Positions 283-50,132 of a stretch of DNA of 64,000 bases are shown here, one piece after another. Within the stretch, counting starts at the first letter, position 1, and every line of letters starts with the position of its first letter. The DNA lies in assembly GCA_021781215.1 (NCBI GenBank), contig JAJXXC010000002.1, positions 16,274-80,273 of the forward strand. The letters are read 5' to 3'. The position numbers were made by a program, and so were the translations under genes. Below the pieces are notes generated by a model. The model saw nothing but the letters and a program-made list of their open reading frames with translations. It ran no database searches and had not been told where the DNA came from. The DNA is from a bacterium. Lineage in GTDB: Bacteria; Patescibacteriota; Saccharimonadia; Saccharimonadales; DATKHC01.

Positions 283-419
283 CTATGGAATCATCATACC
301 ATAGTACAGCTCGATACTCAGATATTCCAGCATATAGCCAAATTTTCTTCTTCAAACCTCTCCTTAGAGGAAAACAGAAGGGAGTCTTACACTCCACTAA
401 AGCAGCTTAATTCTCTACC
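1..419 (-). mobile_element. Intron (probably group I) interrupting 23S rRNA at or next to E. coli position U1931-G1933. Partial: continues past the window start.
   Basis: The conserved 23S helix-69/70 sequence CCGTAACTATAACGGTCCTAAGGTAG (reverse complement of 420-445) is followed by AGAATTAAGCTGC... rather than the expected CGAAATTCCTTGTCGGG. The insert carries the homing endonuclease ORF. The upstream exon ends in GGT(AG), consistent with a terminal exon U for group I P1 pairing. Confidence 0.6.
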
Positions 420-2440
<2,021 letters not shown>

Positions 2441-2947: not shown

Positions 2948-3205
2948 GAATCTTGATCAAATTGATCTTACATATTGTATACAGTAATTGTCTTAAGGTG
3001 CAAATAGTCTTTAAAAATAAACAGACGCCCATTTTAGGCGTCTGTTATTCTTTAAAAATCTATGTAGTGCAAACAACGTCATAATCTTATATCAAACATC
3101 AAACTTAATCTGTCACCGAAGTGCTAAAGATAACTACTAAGCTTATATTAGTTATCCAGATCGACCATAGCTCTCGATTGCTCGAGGCTTAGTATACTCC
3201 CTAGA

Positions 3206-4675
<1,470 letters not shown>

Positions 4676-4771
4676 AAAAAGAAAACTGACGTTGTATTGC
4701 ACTACATAAATTTTTAAAGTTCAATATCGGTTCAAGAGACACCTCAATTAGAGCCCCAAAAGACTCCGATA

Positions 4772-13083: not shown

Positions 13084-13782
13084 AACTCAAAATAATTGTT
13101 ACATACTAAAACAAAAAAACATACCTACTGGAGGTATGTCAGAAATGGTGTCTGGGCGATAAATCCGCTCTATATTAAAAATAAAATAGCGCTTATCACC
13201 CGAGACTTTGACTGGCTGCTCTCGTAAAACGAGAGCATATCGACACTATACATTTGTGCCATAGAAGTAAGTTTTTTGTCTTCAACTCACTATATAACAT
13301 TAGCATTATACTTTTTGCTTGTCAACTCATTATCGTTGCGATTCATACAATACTATACCTTAAAAAAGTTTATAGTAAGAGTACTACTTACTGTATTTTA
13401 ATGTTGTTATTATATCAATGATATTTATGAACACTAATATTTTAAAATGAACATTTTATGTACACCTATTATAAATTATATTATTTTCGTACACGCGGGA
13501 TAAGCCTTAGTCGTAATTATGTTTTTGATCAACCAAATACTATGAAATATCAATAAATTGATCTAAAGTATCCACACGGTGCATTTACCTATGTAATTTA
13601 ATACACCTACTGGTCAACAATAGTGTGTGAAAACTAATTTTTTTAGTGTCATGCCCAGACCTATTATTATTTGATTTATTATTTACGCAAAAAATCGTCT
13701 TACCATTTAGACTATGCTTGGGCTTTCTAACCGGATAATTTTAAAAAGAGGGTTTATGCACAGTTTTTTTAACATAATCGCG

Positions 13783-35712: not shown

Positions 35713-35758
35713 GAACTAAATTATAGCATAAGCGTAGTGCTATTACCTGATAAAGAGC

Positions 35759-41466: not shown

Positions 41467-41709
41467 TTAATGAGTGAATGGAGAATTGTTTGCGTTATTA
41501 CCAATTTTAACTAGTAGAGTTGGGTCAATAGAATTTGAGTTTAAATATTGATTACCTGGTAACTTAAAAGTGGTATTAATCGTGTTAACGACCGTAACTT
41601 CTTGCTGAGTAGAAATAAAATGCGACAGAAGTGCCGAGGTAACAATTATAGCCAAAACTGCACTCAAAAACATTGTGCTAATAATTAACGCTAAGTCATT
41701 TTTTTTCAT
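41467..41709 (-). CDS. Small single-pass membrane protein in the PilP position
   Basis: 80 aa, one TM (LALIISTMFLSAVLAIIVTSALL) plus a short extracytoplasmic tail. 4-nt overlap with upstream pilO-like gene. Confidence 0.35.
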   Translation of the reverse strand: MKKNDLALIISTMFLSAVLAIIVTSALLSHFISTQQEVTVVNTINTTFKLPGNQYLNSNSIDPTLLVKIGNNANNSPFTH

Positions 41710-42407: not shown

Positions 42408-43047
42408 CTGCAGACCTTGTAGTAATTTTATTCGGAACTATTAACTGAACCCCGGATACACTTGTAGCAAAGATTTGAGGAGAGAAAACAGCCGTAACTG
42501 AAAAATTTTGACCAGTAGTTGAGGCTGGAGAATAGGAATAGCTCGATAAAACAACTTTGCTAAACGCCAGTTGATTCGAGGTAGTACTACTGGTGGTATA
42601 TTCACAAAACTTTAGTGTATCGACGAAAGTATTTATTGAATCTATAGTATTGGCGCTACCGGAAAGACTAATCGTATTAGTGGTAAAGTTTAAACTTAGG
42701 GTCTTTATAGACACACTAGCTGGTGTTATGAGTGATAAATATTGGGATAGGCGAGTAACATCTGGCCTTGAATTATATAGTATCGGCAACGCCTTAATCG
42801 TATCGTTAATTTTAAGAATTGAATTTAAACCGGACACCTTATTTAAAGTAGCTATATTATTAGTTATCTGCTCCCTATTTTTAGATATGTTATTCCCTTG
42901 GACAATCTTAACTTCGATGAATAATCCGATCATTATTGCAATCATTAAGACAGAGCCTAAGAATGTGACTCTAGTAATGAGATTATAAATCTTTTTAGCT
43001 CTTATTTCGTACAAGACGGAATCTGGTAGTAAATTAAGTTGAATCAT
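42367..43047 (-). CDS. pilN: PilN-like pilus alignment protein
   Basis: N-terminal MIQLNLLPDS (the INLLP motif), one TM, and an extracytoplasmic domain. Confidence 0.6.
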   Translation of the reverse strand: MIQLNLLPDSVLYEIRAKKIYNLITRVTFLGSVLMIAIMIGLFIEVKIVQGNNISKNREQITNNIATLNKVSGLNSILKINDTIKALPILYNSRPDVTRLSQYLSLITPASVSIKTLSLNFTTNTISLSGSANTIDSINTFVDTLKFCEYTTSSTTSNQLAFSKVVLSSYSYSPASTTGQNFSVTAVFSPQIFATSVSGVQLIVPNKITTRSAVDQPAALFNTSNG

Positions 43048-44078
43048 TCTATTCTCTCCGCCAACCCTACTGCAACACCAAAATAATCTGATATCGCTAA
43101 TAATTCATTCTGTCGCTTTATATCATAAGCTACATTTCTCCAGGCATTACCTATTTCAACATCTATACCTGTATGATTAGCAACTGCTAGAGGAAATTCT
43201 GGAATGATTGCCGCTGATCCAGCAACAATTATCTTACTAAGTTTAATATTGTATTTATCAGTGAAAAATTTAATACTCATATCAATTTCGGCCAAGAGCG
43301 AATTGACTGGATTAATAATCGCTTGATAAACCTGACCCTGAGCTCTGGTTTTATTTAATCCAAATTTAAATACCACTTCTTCAGCTTGTTCTCTCTTGAT
43401 ATTTAGGTCTTGGGTAGCAGCGCGAATAAGAGTCTCGGTGCCATAATTGATTGATCTCGTCAGCATTGCCGCATTATTCATACTAATTACCAAATCGGAG
43501 TTATAGCGCCCTAGATCAAAAACCATCTGCGGGCTAGTGTTGCTAGGATCCAATAAAGCACGGGTTAGGGCTAAGTTATCTGGTTCTAACGAAATAACTT
43601 TCAAACCAATCGACTCAAGCATATCTAATCTTTCTTTGGCTACGCTATTTAAGACACTGCTAATGAGCAGCTTTACCTTAGCAGGGTTCGTAGGAGAGTC
43701 ACCAATAATTGACCAATCGACTTTTGATTCATCAATTGGGGTCGGAATAAAAGAACTAATTTGAAATTTAATACTTTTAATCATTTCCTTGCGTGGTAGT
43801 TTATCTACCTCGACTACAGTAGTAAAAACTTTTTGCGATGGCAGACCAACAGCAACATTCTTGGTAGTAATTTTAGATTTAGTAATTAACTGTTTTAAGG
43901 CATTGGTAACCATGATGTTTGATTTTGTATCAACTGCCGGAGTCGTCGTGTCTAGCGGTGCAAAACCATATTTAACTAAGTTTTTTACTGGTCCACTGCC
44001 CTGTAATTGGACTAGTCTGATAGAAGAAGTACCAATATCTAGCCCAAAGAAATCAGTAACCCCATGTAAAATGCTCAT
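43044..44078 (-). CDS. pilM: Actin-like pilus assembly ATPase PilM
   Basis: FFGLDIGTSSIRLVQL (the actin/HSP70 phosphate-1 motif). 344 aa. Confidence 0.8.
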   Translation of the reverse strand: MSILHGVTDFFGLDIGTSSIRLVQLQGSGPVKNLVKYGFAPLDTTTPAVDTKSNIMVTNALKQLITKSKITTKNVAVGLPSQKVFTTVVEVDKLPRKEMIKSIKFQISSFIPTPIDESKVDWSIIGDSPTNPAKVKLLISSVLNSVAKERLDMLESIGLKVISLEPDNLALTRALLDPSNTSPQMVFDLGRYNSDLVISMNNAAMLTRSINYGTETLIRAATQDLNIKREQAEEVVFKFGLNKTRAQGQVYQAIINPVNSLLAEIDMSIKFFTDKYNIKLSKIIVAGSAAIIPEFPLAVANHTGIDVEIGNAWRNVAYDIKRQNELLAISDYFGVAVGLAERIE

Positions 44079-44139
44079 ATTGTTAAAATTATATCATAAG
44101 CATAAGCATCAACTGACTAAAAAATTGAGTTACAAAAAA

Positions 44140-47100
44140 TTAAATGACTGGAGATAATTCAGTTAAAGCCTGATAATCTGGATTTACAGGCAAAGAACCC
44201 TGGACTTGAGATAACCAAACCTCCGGCCCATAATTGAAGGTTTCTGCTGCGCCAGTAGATCCATACTGTCCGGGTAGGCCGCCATAAACTCTACCGAACT
44301 TTATCTGATTAGCAACAAGGGATCCGTTAACTGTTAGTTGGTTATTACATCCGGCAATTAACGCTTGATCAGCTTGATTCCCAGAAAATGAATTACCGGT
44401 ACCGGCGTTTGCGCAAGTAAAGATCGTACCATTTGCCGAATAAACCCCATCAATACTAGTAGCGGCACTATCTATATAGATATTAGAATTAGAAATGACG
44501 TAGAGTAGTGGAATATCTGCAGCCGAATTTAGACCCGAGCCATTATTATAGATACTTATACTTTCGCTAATCTCAGCATTGCCATTAATATAAACTACGA
44601 CTTTAGATCCAGCCGGTGGATTGCCGCTAATTTTTATCGGTCCATTAAGGCTGCAGTAATTAGTCGTATCAATTAGTTTACAGGCACTGTTACCAGTAGC
44701 AGTCGATAGATCAAACCCACCAGATGCTGGAGAGACAGAGAAACCGACTAGATTATTCTTTGTTGAATAATAATCGAGGTTACATACTCCGTTGGCTGAG
44801 CCAAAATTACCGCCATATGGAGCGTTAACAGTGTTAGCAAAAGTTAATGCGTCTCCTCCACTACCAGTGGATAAACCATTTATTACACTAGGAGCGAGTG
44901 CCGACAAATTATCCGATGCTCCGATCCATGAAGAACCACCAACATTTGAAGCAAATATATTAGCAGAATAGTTTGGTGAGCAAAATCCGTTACTATTAGC
45001 CGAGCCACTGCCGGCTATAATATCTCCGCCGCTAACTGTAAAATATGGTTGTGAATCACAAATTGTAGCCTGATTCTGGTAAGCGGTTTTCCATACATTA
45101 AGGGCAGACACTGACGCATTATATAAATTAAGATCTTGATTATAAAAACTATTTGAGTTATAGGTTGGATACCATGGGGCCAATAAAGGATAGTTCATAG
45201 TCTGATAATAAGTATTATCACTTAGATTCAACCATGGCTTGTAATAAGGCTGCATGTCATTCCAGGCAGTAATTGCTGCAGTCCTAGCTGCAGCTTCTTG
45301 CGCTCGGGCTGGTGGCATAGCTATATTATAAGCATTTCGTGCTGCAATGACTGCTGCCTTATAATTAGCGAGGTTTGTCTGATAAGCTAATTCGCCAGCG
45401 GTATTTGACGCAGTGATAATCGCATTAGCAGCCGCATTACTGGTGGTCACAGGGGTAACAACATAGGTGGTGGTGGGTGGCACCCAAATATACCCACTGT
45501 GTCGATTGTGATTCTTAAGGCTGCCACTTGTCCAGTATTTCCAGTAGCCAGGCGTAGTGACAGGAGTGATGGTATAAGTGGTAGTGGTGGGGGGAAGTAG
45601 CGCTGTGGGAACAAATGCTGCTGGGGGCCCGCTATTTACAACAGCGTCATATGCGGCCTGAATACTTGCAACGTTAGCTACGGCATTATTATAGGCATTG
45701 TAGGCATTAATATACGTGCTTAAAGGGCCTTGTAGCGCCACGGCCGCATTATCAGTCGCAGTTTTATAGTGTTGATAGCCATCCCAAAAAGTACTCCCCT
45801 GATAACTTCCCTGGTCATAGTTAAACCAATTATTGTAGGCAGGATTATATACATTTTTCTGAGCTGCTTCTTGCGCAAGTCCTGCGGCTGTACAAGCTAA
45901 AGACGTAGAGCCAGACCCCGAAGGGCTGCCACCCCATACTATTGAAGTCGGTGAGCAAGTTATGTTTGTGCCATTACCATTTGATGAAGTTACATAGGTT
46001 AGTGATGCTGAATAGACAATTCCCCCTGACGCACTCATGCTAGGAGAATCTACGATCGTTATCGGGTTAGAGTTTGAGTTGCCCTGATTCCACATATAGC
46101 CCGGCGGCCCGAGACTTACGCCCACCGGCCCCTGGAGTACTTGGGGGGCAATATTCTCTCCTGGCCCATTACCGTTAACTATCTTTTGAACTACTACATC
46201 CTTTACTCTTATTGCAGTTGGATTTGCAGTTGGTAAATGCCAATTAATATATACAGAAGTTTGTTGATTCAAGCTTGGCGAATAATTAGTTGCTACCATT
46301 AGGCAAGAAGCGACACAAATACCTACACAAGCTATCTGTGGAATCCTCCCCTGGGGATATGATGAAATATTACCACATACTATATCTAGTTTATTATAAA
46401 AACCATTAGTGGGTATTGAACCACACTTACCGGCCCATTGTGGTCCCACTAGCCCCACCATTGTTCGCGGAGTCGTATCGGCCGCAGCTCTTCCAATATC
46501 ATAAGACCCAGAGGTGATATCCATGGCAGTATTATAGGTGTCGGTCATGTTCTTTTGCTGACACACCTGATTATTATTATCATAACTTACTACTAAATCA
46601 GTTATAGGCGATATTACGTTAAAAAGTGTTACGTATGATCCATTATAGTGAAAATAATTAGTTGAAACATTATCGCCTTTTAAGATAGTCAACATATCGA
46701 ATGCCGCACCAATATTGTCCAATGAAGCTATAGAGTTTGGATTTGTTAAGCCTGTATTTTCAGTATATCCACAGCTACTTGCATTGACGCCATAATAGTA
46801 CGCGAATAATGATGCCAATAATATATATGCATCACTAGTTTTATTTGTAATGCCAATGTTTGCTTTAGCCGCTTGATAGGCGGCCGCCCCTCCGTTAAAG
46901 CCACTGCCATAGAAGTTATTTCCATTAGCTGCTGCAACTACACAAAAATGAACGCCCCACTGCACCAGCGCATCACAAGTACTGGTCATACATATGTTTG
47001 ACCTATTTGTGTAAAATTCTTGCCCGGATGTAATTGACGCGGCGCTAGCATATGGTGCGAAAATGAGTTGAGATAAAATTGTAGCGATAAAAACTATTAC

Positions 47101-47142
47101 TACTGATATGGTTTTTAAATTAAAACTTCGGAGCATTACCAC
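44140..47142 (-). CDS. Giant (1000 aa) secreted low-complexity protein, immediately upstream of pilM
   Basis: Signal peptide MVMLRSFNLKTISVVIVFIATILSQLIFAPYASA|AS. The mature protein is dominated by N/S/G/T/A/Y with scattered Cys. No enzymatic motifs were found. Confidence 0.55.
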   Translation of the reverse strand: MVMLRSFNLKTISVVIVFIATILSQLIFAPYASAASITSGQEFYTNRSNICMTSTCDALVQWGVHFCVVAAANGNNFYGSGFNGGAAAYQAAKANIGITNKTSDAYILLASLFAYYYGVNASSCGYTENTGLTNPNSIASLDNIGAAFDMLTILKGDNVSTNYFHYNGSYVTLFNVISPITDLVVSYDNNNQVCQQKNMTDTYNTAMDITSGSYDIGRAAADTTPRTMVGLVGPQWAGKCGSIPTNGFYNKLDIVCGNISSYPQGRIPQIACVGICVASCLMVATNYSPSLNQQTSVYINWHLPTANPTAIRVKDVVVQKIVNGNGPGENIAPQVLQGPVGVSLGPPGYMWNQGNSNSNPITIVDSPSMSASGGIVYSASLTYVTSSNGNGTNITCSPTSIVWGGSPSGSGSTSLACTAAGLAQEAAQKNVYNPAYNNWFNYDQGSYQGSTFWDGYQHYKTATDNAAVALQGPLSTYINAYNAYNNAVANVASIQAAYDAVVNSGPPAAFVPTALLPPTTTTYTITPVTTPGYWKYWTSGSLKNHNRHSGYIWVPPTTTYVVTPVTTSNAAANAIITASNTAGELAYQTNLANYKAAVIAARNAYNIAMPPARAQEAAARTAAITAWNDMQPYYKPWLNLSDNTYYQTMNYPLLAPWYPTYNSNSFYNQDLNLYNASVSALNVWKTAYQNQATICDSQPYFTVSGGDIIAGSGSANSNGFCSPNYSANIFASNVGGSSWIGASDNLSALAPSVINGLSTGSGGDALTFANTVNAPYGGNFGSANGVCNLDYYSTKNNLVGFSVSPASGGFDLSTATGNSACKLIDTTNYCSLNGPIKISGNPPAGSKVVVYINGNAEISESISIYNNGSGLNSAADIPLLYVISNSNIYIDSAATSIDGVYSANGTIFTCANAGTGNSFSGNQADQALIAGCNNQLTVNGSLVANQIKFGRVYGGLPGQYGSTGAAETFNYGPEVWLSQVQGSLPVNPDYQALTELSPVI

Positions 47143-47202
47143 TATTCTACAACATATTAGTTTTTCCCGTAATTTAAATTATAACGGATACATGTATGCA
47201 CG

Positions 47203-48924
47203 CTATAGGGGGTGAGCAGTTACTTTGCTATTATTATAATCAGCTACCCAGAGGTTAGTACCGTCATATAGTATCGATGTACTCGTACTTGGCAGTAACC
47301 TATAATTAAACTTAGCTATTAGTCTAGTGCCGTTAGTAGTGTACTCTGATGCCGATGCTACTGGATAAACACTTGTCACAAATAAATCGCTTCCAGTAAA
47401 AATTATTTGGTCTGGACTAATAACGTTTATCTCTCTAACGTATGCTCCGTCTGCTGCATTAAATTCAATAGCCTTATTGTTGTCGGTGCTAGTAATCCAT
47501 ACGTAACCACTATGATAAGAAACACAATTTATTCCTGAACCATATTGTGGTTGAGTCTGCCTCAAATAAGCCCCCGTGTTAATACTATACTGATATGCCG
47601 AATTACTAATCTGGTCTGACACCCAAATATAATTTCCATCGACTGCTAAACAAGTGGGATTGCCGAGAGCATGTGATGAGTTGCCCCTTATAGCCCTCAC
47701 AATGTTTCCACTAGTAGCGTTAAACTCAGATAGAAATGATCCGGGGCCTGCTGATGAACCAGTATTATTATTAGCCACCCAAATATGCGTTCCATCAAAA
47801 GCTAGGGCTGCTGGAGCATATATATCCGTACCAGTAATCGTCTGTTTCAGAGATCCGGTAGATGCATAAAACTGTGTTAGGGAATTACCCGAACGATTAG
47901 CCACCCAAATATGCGTTCCATCAAAAGCTAGGGCGTCGGGACAGCTAAACCCATAAGAGAGATTAGAAGGATTAGACGTGTTAGTTAAGGTCATAATAAT
48001 CTGTTTAGTATTCTTATCAATCTCAGTGACTGCATTTCCTTGACAACTAGCAACCCAAATATCTGAACCAGCCTGAACAAATGCATCAGGACCAGCTGGT
48101 ACGGATATCGTATTACCGGTACTTACTGGAGGCGGGGTTGTTGTGGTGGGTGGGGGCGTTGTGGTTGTGGTAGTAGGAACCGTAGATGTTGGATAAACAA
48201 TCACTGTCAAAACTTTAGTAGTTGCACTAACATCACCGTTCACGGTTAGTGTAAAGACATAATTAATTTGAGATGGGGACGAGTTAGCTGGCATTACTAC
48301 GGGGACTGAGATTGATCCTGAACCACATGGAACAATGTTGCTACTAGTGCCTTGAATAGCTGGGCTTGCTGTAATACTACAACCAATTTCATTAGCTACC
48401 TGTCCGGTTAAAGTTACGTTACCACCGGCATTAGGTAATCCACTAACTGAAGCTGTGAAGCTTTTTATAACAGGTCTAGGCGCAGCAACCACAGTCACTC
48501 TTTTTAAAGGCGCAACAGCTACTCCCTTACCTTTTCTGCCAGCAACAATCAGTTTAAAAGTATATACAATATTTGAACCAGAAATATTTTTAGGCAAGCT
48601 AGGTGTGTATATTACCACCCCATCTCTGCAGGCTATATTCCTATTTACTCCAGCCACAGCTGGAGAAACTCTAAAAATACATTTAGTAGCATTTTTAACA
48701 TCTGCCGAAAGTCTTATACGACCACCTGGGTAGTTTAGAGTAACTGGGGCAACAACAAAATTACTTACTGCCGGTTTAGTCGAGATAGCTGCAGATACTC
48801 CACCGACAGAGGCTAGTGATGCGACAAGTAGCAGCAGGGCAACCGAAGTCACTCTCAAGTCTCTGAACATCGCTAACTTACGCTTGTTCTTATATTTTAA
48901 GTATAATAGTGTCTTTTCATCCAT
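47203..48924 (-). CDS. Secreted Ig-like + 7-bladed beta-propeller protein (NHL/YVTN-type repeats); the start is probably the internal Met at ~48870
   Basis: Signal peptide MFRDLRVTSVALLLLVASLASVGGVSAA. Two ~100-aa Ig-like modules and a TTTTTPPPTTTTPPP linker. Seven repeats of G-T/S-x-I/L-W-V-A/S-N/D (DIWVASCQG, THIWVANRSG, THIWVANNNTG, NYIWVSDQIS, GYVWITSTDN, SDLFVTSVYP, TNLWVADYNN). Confidence 0.6.
   Translation of the reverse strand: MDEKTLLYLKYKNKRKLAMFRDLRVTSVALLLLVASLASVGGVSAAISTKPAVSNFVVAPVTLNYPGGRIRLSADVKNATKCIFRVSPAVAGVNRNIACRDGVVIYTPSLPKNISGSNIVYTFKLIVAGRKGKGVAVAPLKRVTVVAAPRPVIKSFTASVSGLPNAGGNVTLTGQVANEIGCSITASPAIQGTSSNIVPCGSGSISVPVVMPANSSPSQINYVFTLTVNGDVSATTKVLTVIVYPTSTVPTTTTTTPPPTTTTPPPVSTGNTISVPAGPDAFVQAGSDIWVASCQGNAVTEIDKNTKQIIMTLTNTSNPSNLSYGFSCPDALAFDGTHIWVANRSGNSLTQFYASTGSLKQTITGTDIYAPAALAFDGTHIWVANNNTGSSAGPGSFLSEFNATSGNIVRAIRGNSSHALGNPTCLAVDGNYIWVSDQISNSAYQYSINTGAYLRQTQPQYGSGINCVSYHSGYVWITSTDNNKAIEFNAADGAYVREINVISPDQIIFTGSDLFVTSVYPVASASEYTTNGTRLIAKFNYRLLPSTSTSILYDGTNLWVADYNNSKVTAHPL
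47771..47934. repeat. 38-nt perfect intragenic direct repeat (two copies, 126 nt apart) inside the beta-propeller gene
   Basis: TTAGCCACCCAAATATGCGTTCCATCAAAAGCTAGGGC at 47771-47808 and again at 47897-47934. The spacing equals one 42-codon propeller blade (FDGTHIWVAN twice). Confidence 0.6.
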
Positions 48925-49115
48925 CAGATTACCGCAGACCTACTTAATCGCTTTTACAGGTATATATTAACATAATATTAAATAATTTCAATGATATTAT
49001 TATCTCTATTTAAAATACTAGGTATGAGCTCATTAGAAATTGGCATAGTTACGAGACAGGCTAACCTAGTTAGATTAATCCCGTTCTTGCAGAGATAAAT
49101 TCGAAAATATTAACA

Positions 49116-50036
49116 TTAGAGCGCTTCGGGGCTCGGATTTAATTTTTCATGGACTAATTTATTCAACTCTGCGGTATTTCCAAATCTTGAAGAAATAACC
49201 GCCAGTCTTTCTACAACCCCAAACTCACTAAGCATCTTATCCGTTATTTTATCTAGCTTTGTAAATTCAACTCCCCATTTACGGTAGTCAACGCCTGCGT
49301 GTATATATCTATTATCCTTTATCTTATCCTTTGTGCTCCTAGAAAAACCATTTGGGATTTTACGATAAATTATCACTTCGACTCCCACCCTAATGCTTGA
49401 CTTAGTGCGCGGATTAATCACATATTCACCACCCTCATTCGAGTAAGAGTCTATCAAGCTAGCTTGGACATATTTATCATTAGCATTTTCCTTAGATATT
49501 TCATCAAGTGCATCTAGCTCCTTATCCCAACCCGTCATCGAAATCAACTCACCGGTTTGCGCCGATAATAACAATACTGTGCTCAATTTACGATTCTGGC
49601 TGGTATCAGGCGTTAAGACTGAGCGTCCGATTAAATAAAAAGGACGATATTTTTCATAGCTAGCCATAGTTGAAGTTGACATCAATAGCTCACTTGGCGT
49701 TGGCTGAGTAGGAGTAGTAGGTAACCAAATAACACTAGAAACTACTGCTAACGCGTCTTTACCGGTCTTAACTCTCATGCTCTCACCACTCTCGGAACGT
49801 GGAAGATGTTCACCAAATTTTTGTATAAATTCTAAATTTAATTTAGACCTAGCCTCTTTAGACTTTTCGGACTGTACTCTTTCAAGCATAACTGAGTCTA
49901 GTGCCTCGGCTAACGCCTGTTGATGGAAAACTCCTAAATCAATCTCCCTACCAGCTAGGTCAATTATGGTATCATTCAGTTCGGTATCTTTAAGTGACTC
50001 TGGCAATATATTTGGTTTTTCTTGTGAATGGTTCAT
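49116..50036 (-). CDS. Hypothetical protein
   Basis: 306 aa ORF, no recognisable motifs. Confidence 0.4.
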   Translation of the reverse strand: MNHSQEKPNILPESLKDTELNDTIIDLAGREIDLGVFHQQALAEALDSVMLERVQSEKSKEARSKLNLEFIQKFGEHLPRSESGESMRVKTGKDALAVVSSVIWLPTTPTQPTPSELLMSTSTMASYEKYRPFYLIGRSVLTPDTSQNRKLSTVLLLSAQTGELISMTGWDKELDALDEISKENANDKYVQASLIDSYSNEGGEYVINPRTKSSIRVGVEVIIYRKIPNGFSRSTKDKIKDNRYIHAGVDYRKWGVEFTKLDKITDKMLSEFGVVERLAVISSRFGNTAELNKLVHEKLNPSPEAL

Positions 50037-50132
50037 ATTTATTTTTTATTTCCTAAACATATACTAGCATAGTTTTGCATATTTATCAATTATATAGTTC
50101 CTATAATACAGTATATCTGTTACAATCTTTTT

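What the first reader, a model, noticed from the sequence alone, without database searches (positions are those of the whole stretch)
44140..47142. 1000-aa secreted N/S/G/T/Y-rich protein fused into the pilM-N-O transcription unit: candidate pilus-associated adhesin or sheath/surface-layer component
It has a clear Sec signal peptide (..APYASA|AS). Composition is extremely biased (long runs such as NGNGTNITCSPTS, GSGSTSLACTAAG, TTTYTITPVTTPGYW) with scattered Cys pairs and no catalytic motifs. It sits 61 nt upstream of pilM on the same strand. In diderm systems this neighbourhood holds the secretin; here a giant fibrous or adhesive protein occupies the slot. It may be a tip adhesin (PilY1-like role) or cell-surface matrix protein specific to this lineage.
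Basis: inference. Interest (0 to 1): 0.6.

Follow-up and report, generated by a model that had tools for sequence, protein, structure and literature searches.

The report
Pilus-linked secreted adhesin-like surface protein
This is a real 998-1000-residue exported protein of a Saccharibacteria (TM7) bacterium; its last ~310 residues define a very large, unnamed protein family that sits directly in front of the type IV pilus gene pilM in almost every related genome examined, which makes it a good but unproven candidate for a pilus-associated host-attachment protein.

Summary
The ORF is real (minus strand, 44140-47142; probable start ATG 47136). It has a Sec-type signal peptide, strongly biased composition and 19 Cys.

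It has three parts:
- a Cys-rich head found only in this clade;
- a low-complexity stalk with repeats;
- a conserved ~310-aa C-terminal domain (CTD).

The CTD defines a family of at least 3,371 clusters at 50% identity. It is always at the extreme C-terminus, behind Sec signals and never behind prepilin signals. CTD genes lie 44-171 nt upstream of pilM in 20 of 20 genome loci and 24 of 28 metagenome loci, in one to three tandem copies.

The CTD models as a beta-solenoid. It resembles, weakly, the solenoid of the pilus-tip pilin ComZ and Pfam DUF7305.

The gene is not part of the core machine. Cultivated Southlakia has essential pili with no gene in this slot. Both pilM and the target carry their own leaderless-type promoter elements.

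Best reading: a modular, fast-evolving surface adhesin that plays a PilY1-like role without PilY1 homology. The secretin-substitute idea is not supported. Function is inferred from sequence and synteny only.

The parts
44140..47142 (-). Target ORF, 1000 codons from GTG 47142. The probable true start is ATG 47136 (998 aa, = P0001). Stop codon at 44140-44142.
47144..47154 (-). -10-like element TGTTGTAGAAT, 7 nt upstream of ATG 47136. It is conserved upstream of the orthologues in L001-L004. It suggests a separate, leaderless-type promoter for the target gene.
   Evidence: inference, no expression data
47041..47142 (-). Sec-type signal peptide, residues 1-34: basic n-region, ~20-residue hydrophobic core, A-S-A then A. 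Orthologues keep V/A-x-A at the same place.
   Evidence: heuristic only
45907..47040 (-). Clade-specific Cys-rich head, residues 35-412, with 11 Cys of which 9 (C51, C56, C67, C124, C194, C240, C256, C276, C396) are invariant among the 7 clade members. No detectable homology outside about 7 protein clusters. No Pfam, NCBIfam or PDB match.
45073..45906 (-). Low-complexity A/N/Y/T/P-rich stalk, residues 413-690. It carries two PPTTTY(T/V)(I/V)TPVTT repeats (residues 517-534 and 555-567). Length and repeats vary between orthologues. Long helices are predicted, but only at very low confidence.
44143..45072 (-). Family-defining C-terminal domain (CTD), residues 691-1000. It has a predicted beta-solenoid core (residues ~786-950, pLDDT about 90), conserved Cys 695/721/787/910/932, and the tail ..YQALTELSPVI-COOH.
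44088..44101 (-). GCTTATGATATAAT, a conserved extended -10 promoter-like motif 9 nt upstream of the pilM ATG. It lies between the target gene and pilM.
43044..44078 (-). pilM (PF11104, E 2.7e-36), the first gene of the pilus machinery operon: pilM-N-O, an 80-aa gene, pilB-T-C, pilin, pilD, minor pilins, down to 32467.
47203..48924 (-). 573-aa secreted protein with Ig-like repeats, a T/P linker and an NHL beta-propeller, 60 nt upstream of the target. It is conserved in this position only in the target's own clade (L001, L003, L004).

Best explanation
The gene encodes a modular surface protein exported by Sec from a Saccharibacteria cell. The signal peptide is probably cut after residue 34.

Proposed roles of the three parts:
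- The conserved C-terminal beta-solenoid (CTD) is a docking module. It ties the protein to the type IV pilus (T4P) system, most plausibly to the minor-pilin tip complex, or otherwise to the envelope next to the machine.
- The low-complexity stalk acts as a spacer.
- The fast-evolving Cys-rich head is the part that contacts the outside world, probably the wall of the host bacterium.

In logic this resembles PilY1/PilC: a non-pilin with a Sec signal, a conserved C-terminal docking domain and a variable N-terminal binding domain. It is built on a different fold, one that weakly resembles the solenoid of the tip pilins ComZ and cyanobacterial PilX.

Shown here: the architecture, the family, the synteny and the relative evolutionary rates. 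Inferred: export, surface location, docking to the pilus and adhesion.
For: - The ORF is real and has Sec-like features. Of 127 complete-looking family representatives, 119 have Sec-like N-termini and none has a prepilin motif.
- The CTD family has 3,371 clusters at E<=1e-3 and 1,210 at E<=1e-30. The CTD reaches the extreme C-terminus in 151 of 152 cases.
- Only the CTD is shared between the target's clade and typical members (hhalign probability 100, E 4.7e-46).
- A CTD gene lies immediately upstream of pilM on the same strand in 20 of 20 genome loci and 24 of 28 metagenome loci, and in all four contigs that reach downstream of the three protein homologues concerned (P0002, P0003, P0005). There are one to three tandem paralogues with different N-terminal regions.
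- In the complete genomes that gave a hit, only the pilM-adjacent locus was found.
- Some members carry PA14, PKD, CARDB/DUF11 or DUF1349 (lectin-like) modules.
- The head and stalk diverge much faster than the CTD and the Pil proteins.
- The CTD model is a beta-solenoid (pTM 0.69, core pLDDT about 90). The best PDB fold match is ComZ 6qvi (E 8.7e-3, probability 0.97), followed by FfIBP-type solenoids.
- DUF7305 was the only Pfam family matched by more than one of the 16 diverse CTDs scanned: 7 of 16 (best E 6.3e-5; the target's CTD E 3.3e-4), all at or below the level of the gathering score.
- ComZ and cyanobacterial PilX solenoids are proposed tip or 'plug' modules (PMC6561018; bioRxiv 10.64898/2026.02.12.705559).
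Against: - There is no experimental or expression evidence.
- The fold match is weak (TM 0.26). The DUF7305 score of 21.1 bits is below the 27-bit gathering score. No sequence match to any PDB chain was found.
- Saccharibacteria genomes are highly syntenic, and the YchF-pilM junction is a variable island of 0-11 kb. Adjacency could therefore partly reflect a permissive insertion site.
- pilM and the minor-pilin operon share a promoter motif that the target lacks.
- In most of the family each CTD gene is translationally coupled to a membrane-anchored TPR protein. That fits anchoring at the cell surface at least as well as riding on the pilus. The window's clade lacks this partner.
- Cultivated Southlakia, and apparently TM7x, make functional pili with no such gene in the locus.
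Confidence: 0.45

Rival explanations
1. It is a cell-surface or surface-layer-type adhesin that is not carried on the pilus. The CTD would be an envelope-anchoring module, held in most of the family by the adjacent membrane-anchored TPR protein. The gene would sit next to pilM only because both serve host attachment, or because the YchF-pilM junction tolerates insertions.
For: - The TM-TPR partner gene overlaps the CTD gene start in nearly all non-clade loci.
- 'Conserved anchor plus variable exposed part' is the usual layout of wall-anchored surface proteins (general knowledge).
- The target has its own promoter-like element and lacks the pil motif.
- The island size is variable.
Against: - No SLH, LysM, LPXTG, C-terminal TM or other known anchor was found.
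- The 19 Cys are atypical of S-layer proteins (general knowledge).
- The CTD gene is always the last gene before pilM and in the same orientation, and the family seems confined to this slot.
- The only fold and Pfam leads point to a pilus-tip module.
Confidence: 0.3
2. It is a structural accessory of the pilus machine that guides the filament through the wall or surface layer of a cell without an outer membrane. In function it would stand in for the secretin/pilotin pair, with the TPR partner acting like PilF, Tgl or TadD.
For: - A conserved C-terminal domain with variable N-terminal domains, a TPR partner and adjacency to pilMNO all recall PilQ plus pilotin (knowledge of PilQ/PilF).
- No PilQ is present in CPR bacteria (PMC6744442).
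Against: - There is no secretin or N0 domain.
- The model is a monomeric solenoid and gives no fold match to any secretin in the PDB.
- There are 0-3 copies per locus, with unrelated N-terminal regions.
- The slot is empty in Southlakia, where the pilus genes are essential.
- The window's clade has no TPR partner.
- Divergence is far faster than for the machinery proteins.
Confidence: 0.08
3. It is a secreted effector or enzyme. For example, it could be a beta-helix polysaccharide lyase or hydrolase acting on the host wall, or a cargo that the pilus machine pushes out, with the CTD serving as the export recognition domain.
For: - Beta-solenoids are common in polysaccharide lyases and tailspikes (PMC6561018 discussion).
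- One weak CHAP hit (E 0.013) occurs in 1 of 23 typical members.
Against: - No catalytic family was detected in the target or in most members.
- Pectate-lyase and tailspike fold matches are insignificant.
- The conserved part is the solenoid, while the variable parts look like binding modules (PA14, PKD, CARDB).
Confidence: 0.1

Closest known systems
PilY1 / PilC (non-pilin tip adhesins of type IVa pili in Pseudomonas, Neisseria and Myxococcus)
   Same: Large (about 1000 aa), with a Sec signal rather than a prepilin signal. A conserved C-terminal domain is combined with a variable N-terminal domain. It is encoded within the pilus gene cluster, and paralogues with different N-terminal domains can coexist.
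   Different: There is no PF05567 domain or beta-propeller; the conserved domain here models as a beta-solenoid. The gene is upstream of pilM, not inside the minor-pilin operon. No calcium-site or vWA motifs were found. Pilus association is untested.
ComZ (Thermus thermophilus, PDB 6qvi) and cyanobacterial PilX: tip pilins with an inserted triangular beta-solenoid (probably Pfam DUF7305)
   Same: ComZ is the best fold match of the CTD model. DUF7305 is the only recurrent Pfam signal. Both belong to type IV pilus gene clusters.
   Different: ComZ and PilX are pilins, with a pilin fold and the solenoid inserted between the last two strands. The target has a Sec signal, no pilin domain, and the solenoid at the extreme C-terminus. 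The similarity is weak (TM 0.26; 21 bits against a 27-bit cut-off).
Tapirins of Caldicellulosiruptor (bioRxiv 10.1101/359786)
   Same: They are secreted adhesins of a cell without an outer membrane. [quoted passage not shown]
   Different: In tapirins the C-terminal domain is itself the cellulose-binding part. Fold matches to tapirin structures here are insignificant (E 4-7). They come from a different phylum, and no sequence similarity was detected.
PilQ secretin with its TPR pilotin (PilF/Tgl/TadD)
   Same: A conserved C-terminal region with variable N-terminal domains, next to pilMNO. In most of the family, though not in this window, a small TPR protein is co-encoded.
   Different: There is no secretin fold or domain. 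The gene is present in 0-3 copies and is dispensable in cultivated relatives. There is no outer membrane to cross.

Membership tests
PilY1/PilC tip adhesins | C-terminal PilY1/PilC beta-propeller domain (Pfam PF05567) | tested here: not met
   Pfam gave no family at E<=0.1 for the whole protein. The CTD models as a beta-solenoid. No propeller appears among the fold matches.
PilY1/PilC tip adhesins | Non-pilin protein with a Sec signal, encoded in the pilus gene cluster | tested here: met
   The N-terminus is Sec-like and has no prepilin motif. The gene is 61 nt upstream of pilM.
PilY1/PilC tip adhesins | Physical association with minor pilins at the pilus tip | not testable with these tools
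   This needs complex prediction, pull-downs or immuno-electron microscopy.
ComZ/PilX-type solenoid pilins (DUF7305) | Match to PF23981 above the gathering score | tested here: not met
   The target's CTD scores 21.1 bits (E 3.3e-4) against a 27-bit cut-off. Seven of 16 diverse CTDs hit DUF7305 at E<=1, with the best at 6.3e-5.
ComZ/PilX-type solenoid pilins (DUF7305) | Pilin-like N-terminal helix and fold carrying the solenoid as an insertion | tested here: not met
   The signal is Sec-type. No N_methyl or pilin match was found, and the solenoid is C-terminal.
ComZ/PilX-type solenoid pilins (DUF7305) | [quoted passage not shown] | tested here: inconclusive
Secretins (PilQ/GspD) | Secretin C-terminal domain (PF00263) and N0/N1 domains | tested here: not met
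   There are no such Pfam or NCBIfam hits and no secretin among the fold matches.
S-layer / wall-anchored surface proteins | A known anchor: SLH, LysM, LPXTG sorting signal, or C-terminal TM | tested here: not met
   No such domains were found. There is a single N-terminal hydrophobic segment, and the C-terminus ends ..ELSPVI.
Tapirins | Structural similarity to the tapirin C-terminal domain (4wa0, 6n2b) | tested here: not met
   Foldseek E 4.3-6.6 and TM about 0.1.
Unnamed Saccharibacteria 'pilM-upstream CTD' family (defined here) | About 310-aa CTD at the extreme C-terminus behind a Sec signal | tested here: met
   CTD HMM score 513.7 bits; hhalign probability 100.
Unnamed Saccharibacteria 'pilM-upstream CTD' family (defined here) | Gene immediately upstream of pilM on the same strand | tested here: met
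   The gap is 61 nt in the window. The same arrangement holds in 20 of 20 genome loci and 24 of 28 metagenome loci.
Unnamed Saccharibacteria 'pilM-upstream CTD' family (defined here) | Translationally coupled upstream gene for a membrane-anchored TPR protein | tested here: not met
   The partner HMM finds nothing in the window at E<=10, and nothing in L001-L004. This clade has an NHL-propeller gene in that position instead.

The most novel reading that the evidence does not exclude
The CTD is a free-standing version of the ComZ/PilX 'tip plug' solenoid. It would be exported by Sec and dock non-covalently onto the minor-pilin tip complex. Saccharibacteria would then mount interchangeable tip adhesins (one to three cassettes per genome, each with a different head) on one conserved retractile pilus. 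The repertoire of heads would set which host bacteria an epibiont can attach to. The mammal-associated lineages would have lost the system.
Probability: 0.25. Interest if true: 0.75.

Novelty: new variant of a known kind. Interest (0 to 1): 0.55.

Why it matters
Type IV pili are essential for the epibiotic life of cultivated Saccharibacteria. What decides host recognition in the vast environmental diversity of this phylum is unknown.

This work identifies a very large, unannotated family of secreted proteins that:
- has no Pfam or NCBIfam model;
- was not mentioned in the pilus papers read here;
- is genetically locked to the 5' edge of the pilus operon;
- has rapidly diverging outer domains.

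This gives a concrete, testable set of candidate host-specificity factors. It also offers a new example of how a pilus-associated adhesin can be built without a PilY1 propeller.

Tried and rejected
- Whole-protein Pfam, NCBIfam and PDB sequence searches found nothing. PDB profile searches with the CTD and family alignments found nothing meaningful.
- The full-length AlphaFold model from 5 sequences was unusable (pLDDT 32).
- The word-indexed homologue search with a CTD profile returned only 16 proteins, so the CTD alignment used for modelling stayed shallow at 21 sequences.
It was rerun with alignment A1.
- An exact look-up of P0001 gave no contig record and no source names, so the organism name was not obtained. 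Saccharibacteria is inferred from the related loci and from synteny with Southlakia.
- The generic promoter/terminator scan was uninformative: 20 promoter-like sites against 18.9 expected, and no terminator in the gaps.
- Literature searches for DUF7305 and PF23981 returned nothing.
- Considered and rejected: secretin, PilY1 membership, pilin, sortase substrate, lipoprotein, a second CTD gene in the window, and homology of the head to the typical family N-domain.
Full report
**1. Observation**

The ORF exists exactly where stated, on the minus strand (44140-47142, 1000 codons from GTG). The public copy of the protein (P0001) is 998 aa and starts at ATG 47136. A -10-like element, TGTTGTAGAAT at 47144-47154, ends 7 nt before that ATG. 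The same element lies 9-12 nt before the start codon of the orthologues in L001-L004. I therefore take ATG 47136 as the start and suspect a leaderless transcript.

Composition is strongly biased: A+N+S+G+T make up 50 %, K+R+D+E only 7.6 %, and there are 19 Cys. The only strongly hydrophobic segment is N-terminal and is followed by ASA|A. Orthologues keep a small-x-small site at the same position. No SignalP-type tool was available, so export is a rule-of-thumb call. The gap to pilM is 61 nt on the same strand.

**2. Context**

The window carries a complete type IV pilus (T4P) cluster on the minus strand. In order: pilM, pilN, pilO, an 80-aa gene, pilB, pilT, pilC, a pilin, pilD, three minor pilins and a 417-aa PilX-like gene.

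The wider gene order is S6-SSB-EF-P-TlyA-YchF ... pil cluster ... XerC-Ndk. This matches the T4P1 locus of the cultivated saccharibacterium Southlakia epibionticum (supplement of PMC10633639). All related genome loci come from Saccharibacteria/Saccharimonadales assemblies, or from assemblies labelled only as 'bacterium' or 'Patescibacteria group'.

**3. Anatomy**

Alignment of the few full-length homologues (43-49 % identity) and the exhaustive profile search show three parts.
- **Head and stalk (residues 35-690).** These occur only in about 7 protein clusters. They have no Pfam, NCBIfam or PDB match.
- **Stalk repeats.** The stalk is low-complexity and varies in length and repeats. This protein has two PPTTTY..TPVTT units. 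P0002 has PPAYN and NSYNKQLT repeats instead, and P0004 lacks about 130 residues.
- **CTD (the last ~310 residues).** This domain defines a very large family: 3,371 clusters at 50 % identity with E<=1e-3, and 1,210 with E<=1e-30.

The CTD ends within 5 residues of the C-terminus in 151 of 152 top representatives. Family proteins are 650-1,575 aa long. Their N-termini look like Sec signals in 119 of 127 complete-looking cases, and none has a prepilin motif.

Profile-profile comparison of the target's clade with typical ~760-aa members aligns the CTD only (probability 100, E 4.7e-46). Typical members have a different conserved N-domain and DUF11/CARDB Ig-like modules. A few carry PA14, PKD or DUF1349. 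Nearly invariant Cys residues (695, 721, 787, 910, 932) fit an extracytoplasmic, disulfide-bonded domain.

**4. Linkage to the pilus genes**

- In all 20 loci recovered from species-representative genomes, the CTD gene is on the same strand as pilM and ends 45-150 nt before it.
- The same holds in 24 of 28 metagenome loci, with gaps of 44-171 nt. The other four are contig ends or a tandem copy (L035, L039) and two short or unclear cases (L050, L052).
- It also holds for all four contigs that carry P0002, P0003 (two contigs) or P0005 and reach beyond the gene. P0004's contig ends 57 nt past the gene. Those 57 nt already contain the pilM promoter motif.
- Several genomes carry two or three tandem CTD genes with different N-terminal regions (L005, L007-L010).
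- In the complete genomes that gave a hit, only this locus was found.

The space between the divergently oriented ychF gene and pilM is a variable island. It measures 0 kb in Southlakia, 2.7-11 kb elsewhere and 6 kb in the window.

**5. Not core machinery, and not obviously co-transcribed**

Southlakia has ychF directly next to pilM, and its T4P1 genes are essential. The TM7x locus as published lists no such gene.

Between the target and pilM lies GCTTATGATATAAT (44088-44101), an extended -10 element 9 nt before the pilM ATG. The motif GCTTATG(n)TATAAT occupies the same place in 18 of the 25 first loci and in 23 of 28 metagenome loci. The window holds only one other exact copy (35720-35733), 7 nt before the first minor-pilin gene. 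That position is also conserved in several other loci.

CTD genes never carry this motif. In L007 a long perfect hairpin separates the CTD gene from the pilM promoter. No terminator was detected in the window's 61-nt gap, so read-through is possible. The claim that the gene is 'fused into the pilMNO transcription unit' is nevertheless not supported.

**6. Evolutionary rate**

| Compared with | Machinery proteins | Target |
|---|---|---|
| L001 | PilM/N/O/B/T/C 74-94 % | 49 % overall; head 44 %, stalk 39 %, CTD 74 % |
| L027 (closest metagenome relative) | PilM 96.5 %, PilB 94 % | CTD 82 % |

This is the pattern expected for an exposed, diversifying protein that carries a constrained docking module.

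**7. Fold of the CTD**

With 21 sequences, AlphaFold gave pTM 0.69. It produced a confident all-beta solenoid-like core (CTD residues about 100-265, pLDDT about 90) and poorly defined ends.
- Foldseek against the PDB ranks the three chains of ComZ (6qvi) first. The best has E 8.7e-3 and probability 0.97, but TM is only 0.26. Next come HpmA and FfIBP-type ice-binding solenoids. Tapirin and pectate-lyase matches are insignificant.
- Independently, DUF7305 was the only Pfam family matched by more than one of the 16 diverse CTDs. It hit 7 of them (best E 6.3e-5; the target 3.3e-4 at 21.1 bits against a 27-bit cut-off). The match falls on the same confident core.

ComZ is a tip pilin whose solenoid resembles FfIBP (PMC6561018). 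Cyanobacterial PilX proteins carry the same kind of solenoid, which has been proposed to replace the PilY1 'plug' (bioRxiv 10.64898/2026.02.12.705559).

Two weak, independent signals thus point to the same pilus-tip module. I treat this as a lead, not as established homology. The link between DUF7305 and ComZ/PilX is my inference; I could not check the Pfam membership.

**8. A partner the window lacks**

In the broader family every CTD gene is preceded, usually with a 4-nt overlap, by a 160-200-aa protein. That protein has a short basic N-terminus, one TM helix and a TPR ectodomain (TPR_1/2/8 above gathering scores). A partner HMM finds it in L005-L011, L013-L020 and L022-L024. It finds nothing in the window (E<=10) or in L001-L004.

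The target's clade instead has a secreted Ig/NHL-propeller protein upstream. Its C-terminal tail also differs..YQALTELSPVI against the family consensus ..YDAITSLPPVL.

The TPR partner is compatible with a chaperone or docking role. It strengthens the rival in which the CTD anchors the protein at the cell surface. It also gives the secretin/pilotin analogy some substance.

**9. Verdict**

The adhesin-type interpretation is partly supported: the synteny is strong, the architecture and evolutionary rates fit, and the fold lead is suggestive. The secretin-slot and co-transcription ideas are not supported.

The protein is not a member of the PilY1, secretin, pilin, tapirin or known anchor families. 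It belongs to an unnamed family specific to Saccharibacteria, and it is an atypical member: new head, no TPR partner.

I found no description of this family in the Saccharibacteria/CPR pilus papers I read. I rate it a new variant of a known kind (a non-pilin adhesin associated with pilus genes), with moderate interest.

Noticed in passing
window 44088-44101 (-) and 35720-35733 (-); same positions in L001, L002, L006, L008, L013, L017 and others: A conserved motif GCTTATG(n)TATAAT (extended -10) lies 7-11 nt before the ATG of pilM and of the first minor-pilin gene. These are the only two exact copies in 64 kb. The motif is conserved across distant Saccharibacteria. It looks like a leaderless promoter or operator specific to the pilus genes. 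A one-mismatch copy lies at 43117-43130, inside pilM and about 70 nt before pilN.
   Followed up: partly
L005-L024, e.g. L007 8010-8567, L009 10925-11518, L011 8466-8972: Every CTD gene outside the window's clade is translationally coupled to an upstream gene of about 180 aa. That gene encodes a single-pass membrane protein with an external TPR domain. The two form a repeated two-gene cassette present in one to three copies. The partner is absent from the window and from L001-L004.
   Followed up: partly
window 44079-50132; L006-L024 between ychF and pilM: The ychF-pilM junction is a hypervariable island: 0 kb in Southlakia epibionticum, 2.7-11 kb in environmental Saccharibacteria. The flanking gene order (S6-SSB-EF-P-TlyA-YchF / pil cluster / XerC-Ndk) is conserved.
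   Followed up: partly
window 47203-48924 (-): A 573-aa secreted protein has two Ig-like repeats, a T/P-rich linker and an NHL beta-propeller. It is conserved directly upstream of the target only in the target's clade (46-54 % identity). It may be a second surface or adhesion factor, or a replacement for the TPR partner.
   Followed up: partly
window 41467-41709 (-): An 80-aa ORF lies between pilO and pilB. It is conserved in nearly every related locus. Its Southlakia counterpart (SEML1_0107, 75 aa) is scored essential. It has no family assignment.
   Followed up: no
window 329-2436 (-): The 23S rRNA match covers the whole Rfam model (positions 1-2925) in only 2,108 nt, at 1,573 bits. This implies large internal deletions or a fragmented gene. 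No 5S rRNA was found in the window. The 16S (3205-4677), tRNA-Ile and tRNA-Ala look normal.
   Followed up: partly
L007 about 13455-13570: A long, near-perfect inverted repeat (a hairpin of about 50 bp) lies between the last CTD gene and the pilM promoter motif. It may be a terminator or a regulatory structure.
   Followed up: no
window 49116-50036 (-): A 306-aa ORF without a signal peptide or any family match is inserted between ychF and the NHL-propeller gene. It is absent from the corresponding place in L004. A strong promoter-like site (11 of 12 matches) lies at 50139-50110.
   Followed up: no
P0012 and about 20 similar proteins (alignment A6): Typical family members share a conserved N-terminal domain of about 200 aa of unknown fold. 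Its motifs include GYFxNxxD, TGAAFIIxTM and YAIKRxCANPVG. It has no Pfam or PDB match, apart from one weak CHAP hit.
   Followed up: partly
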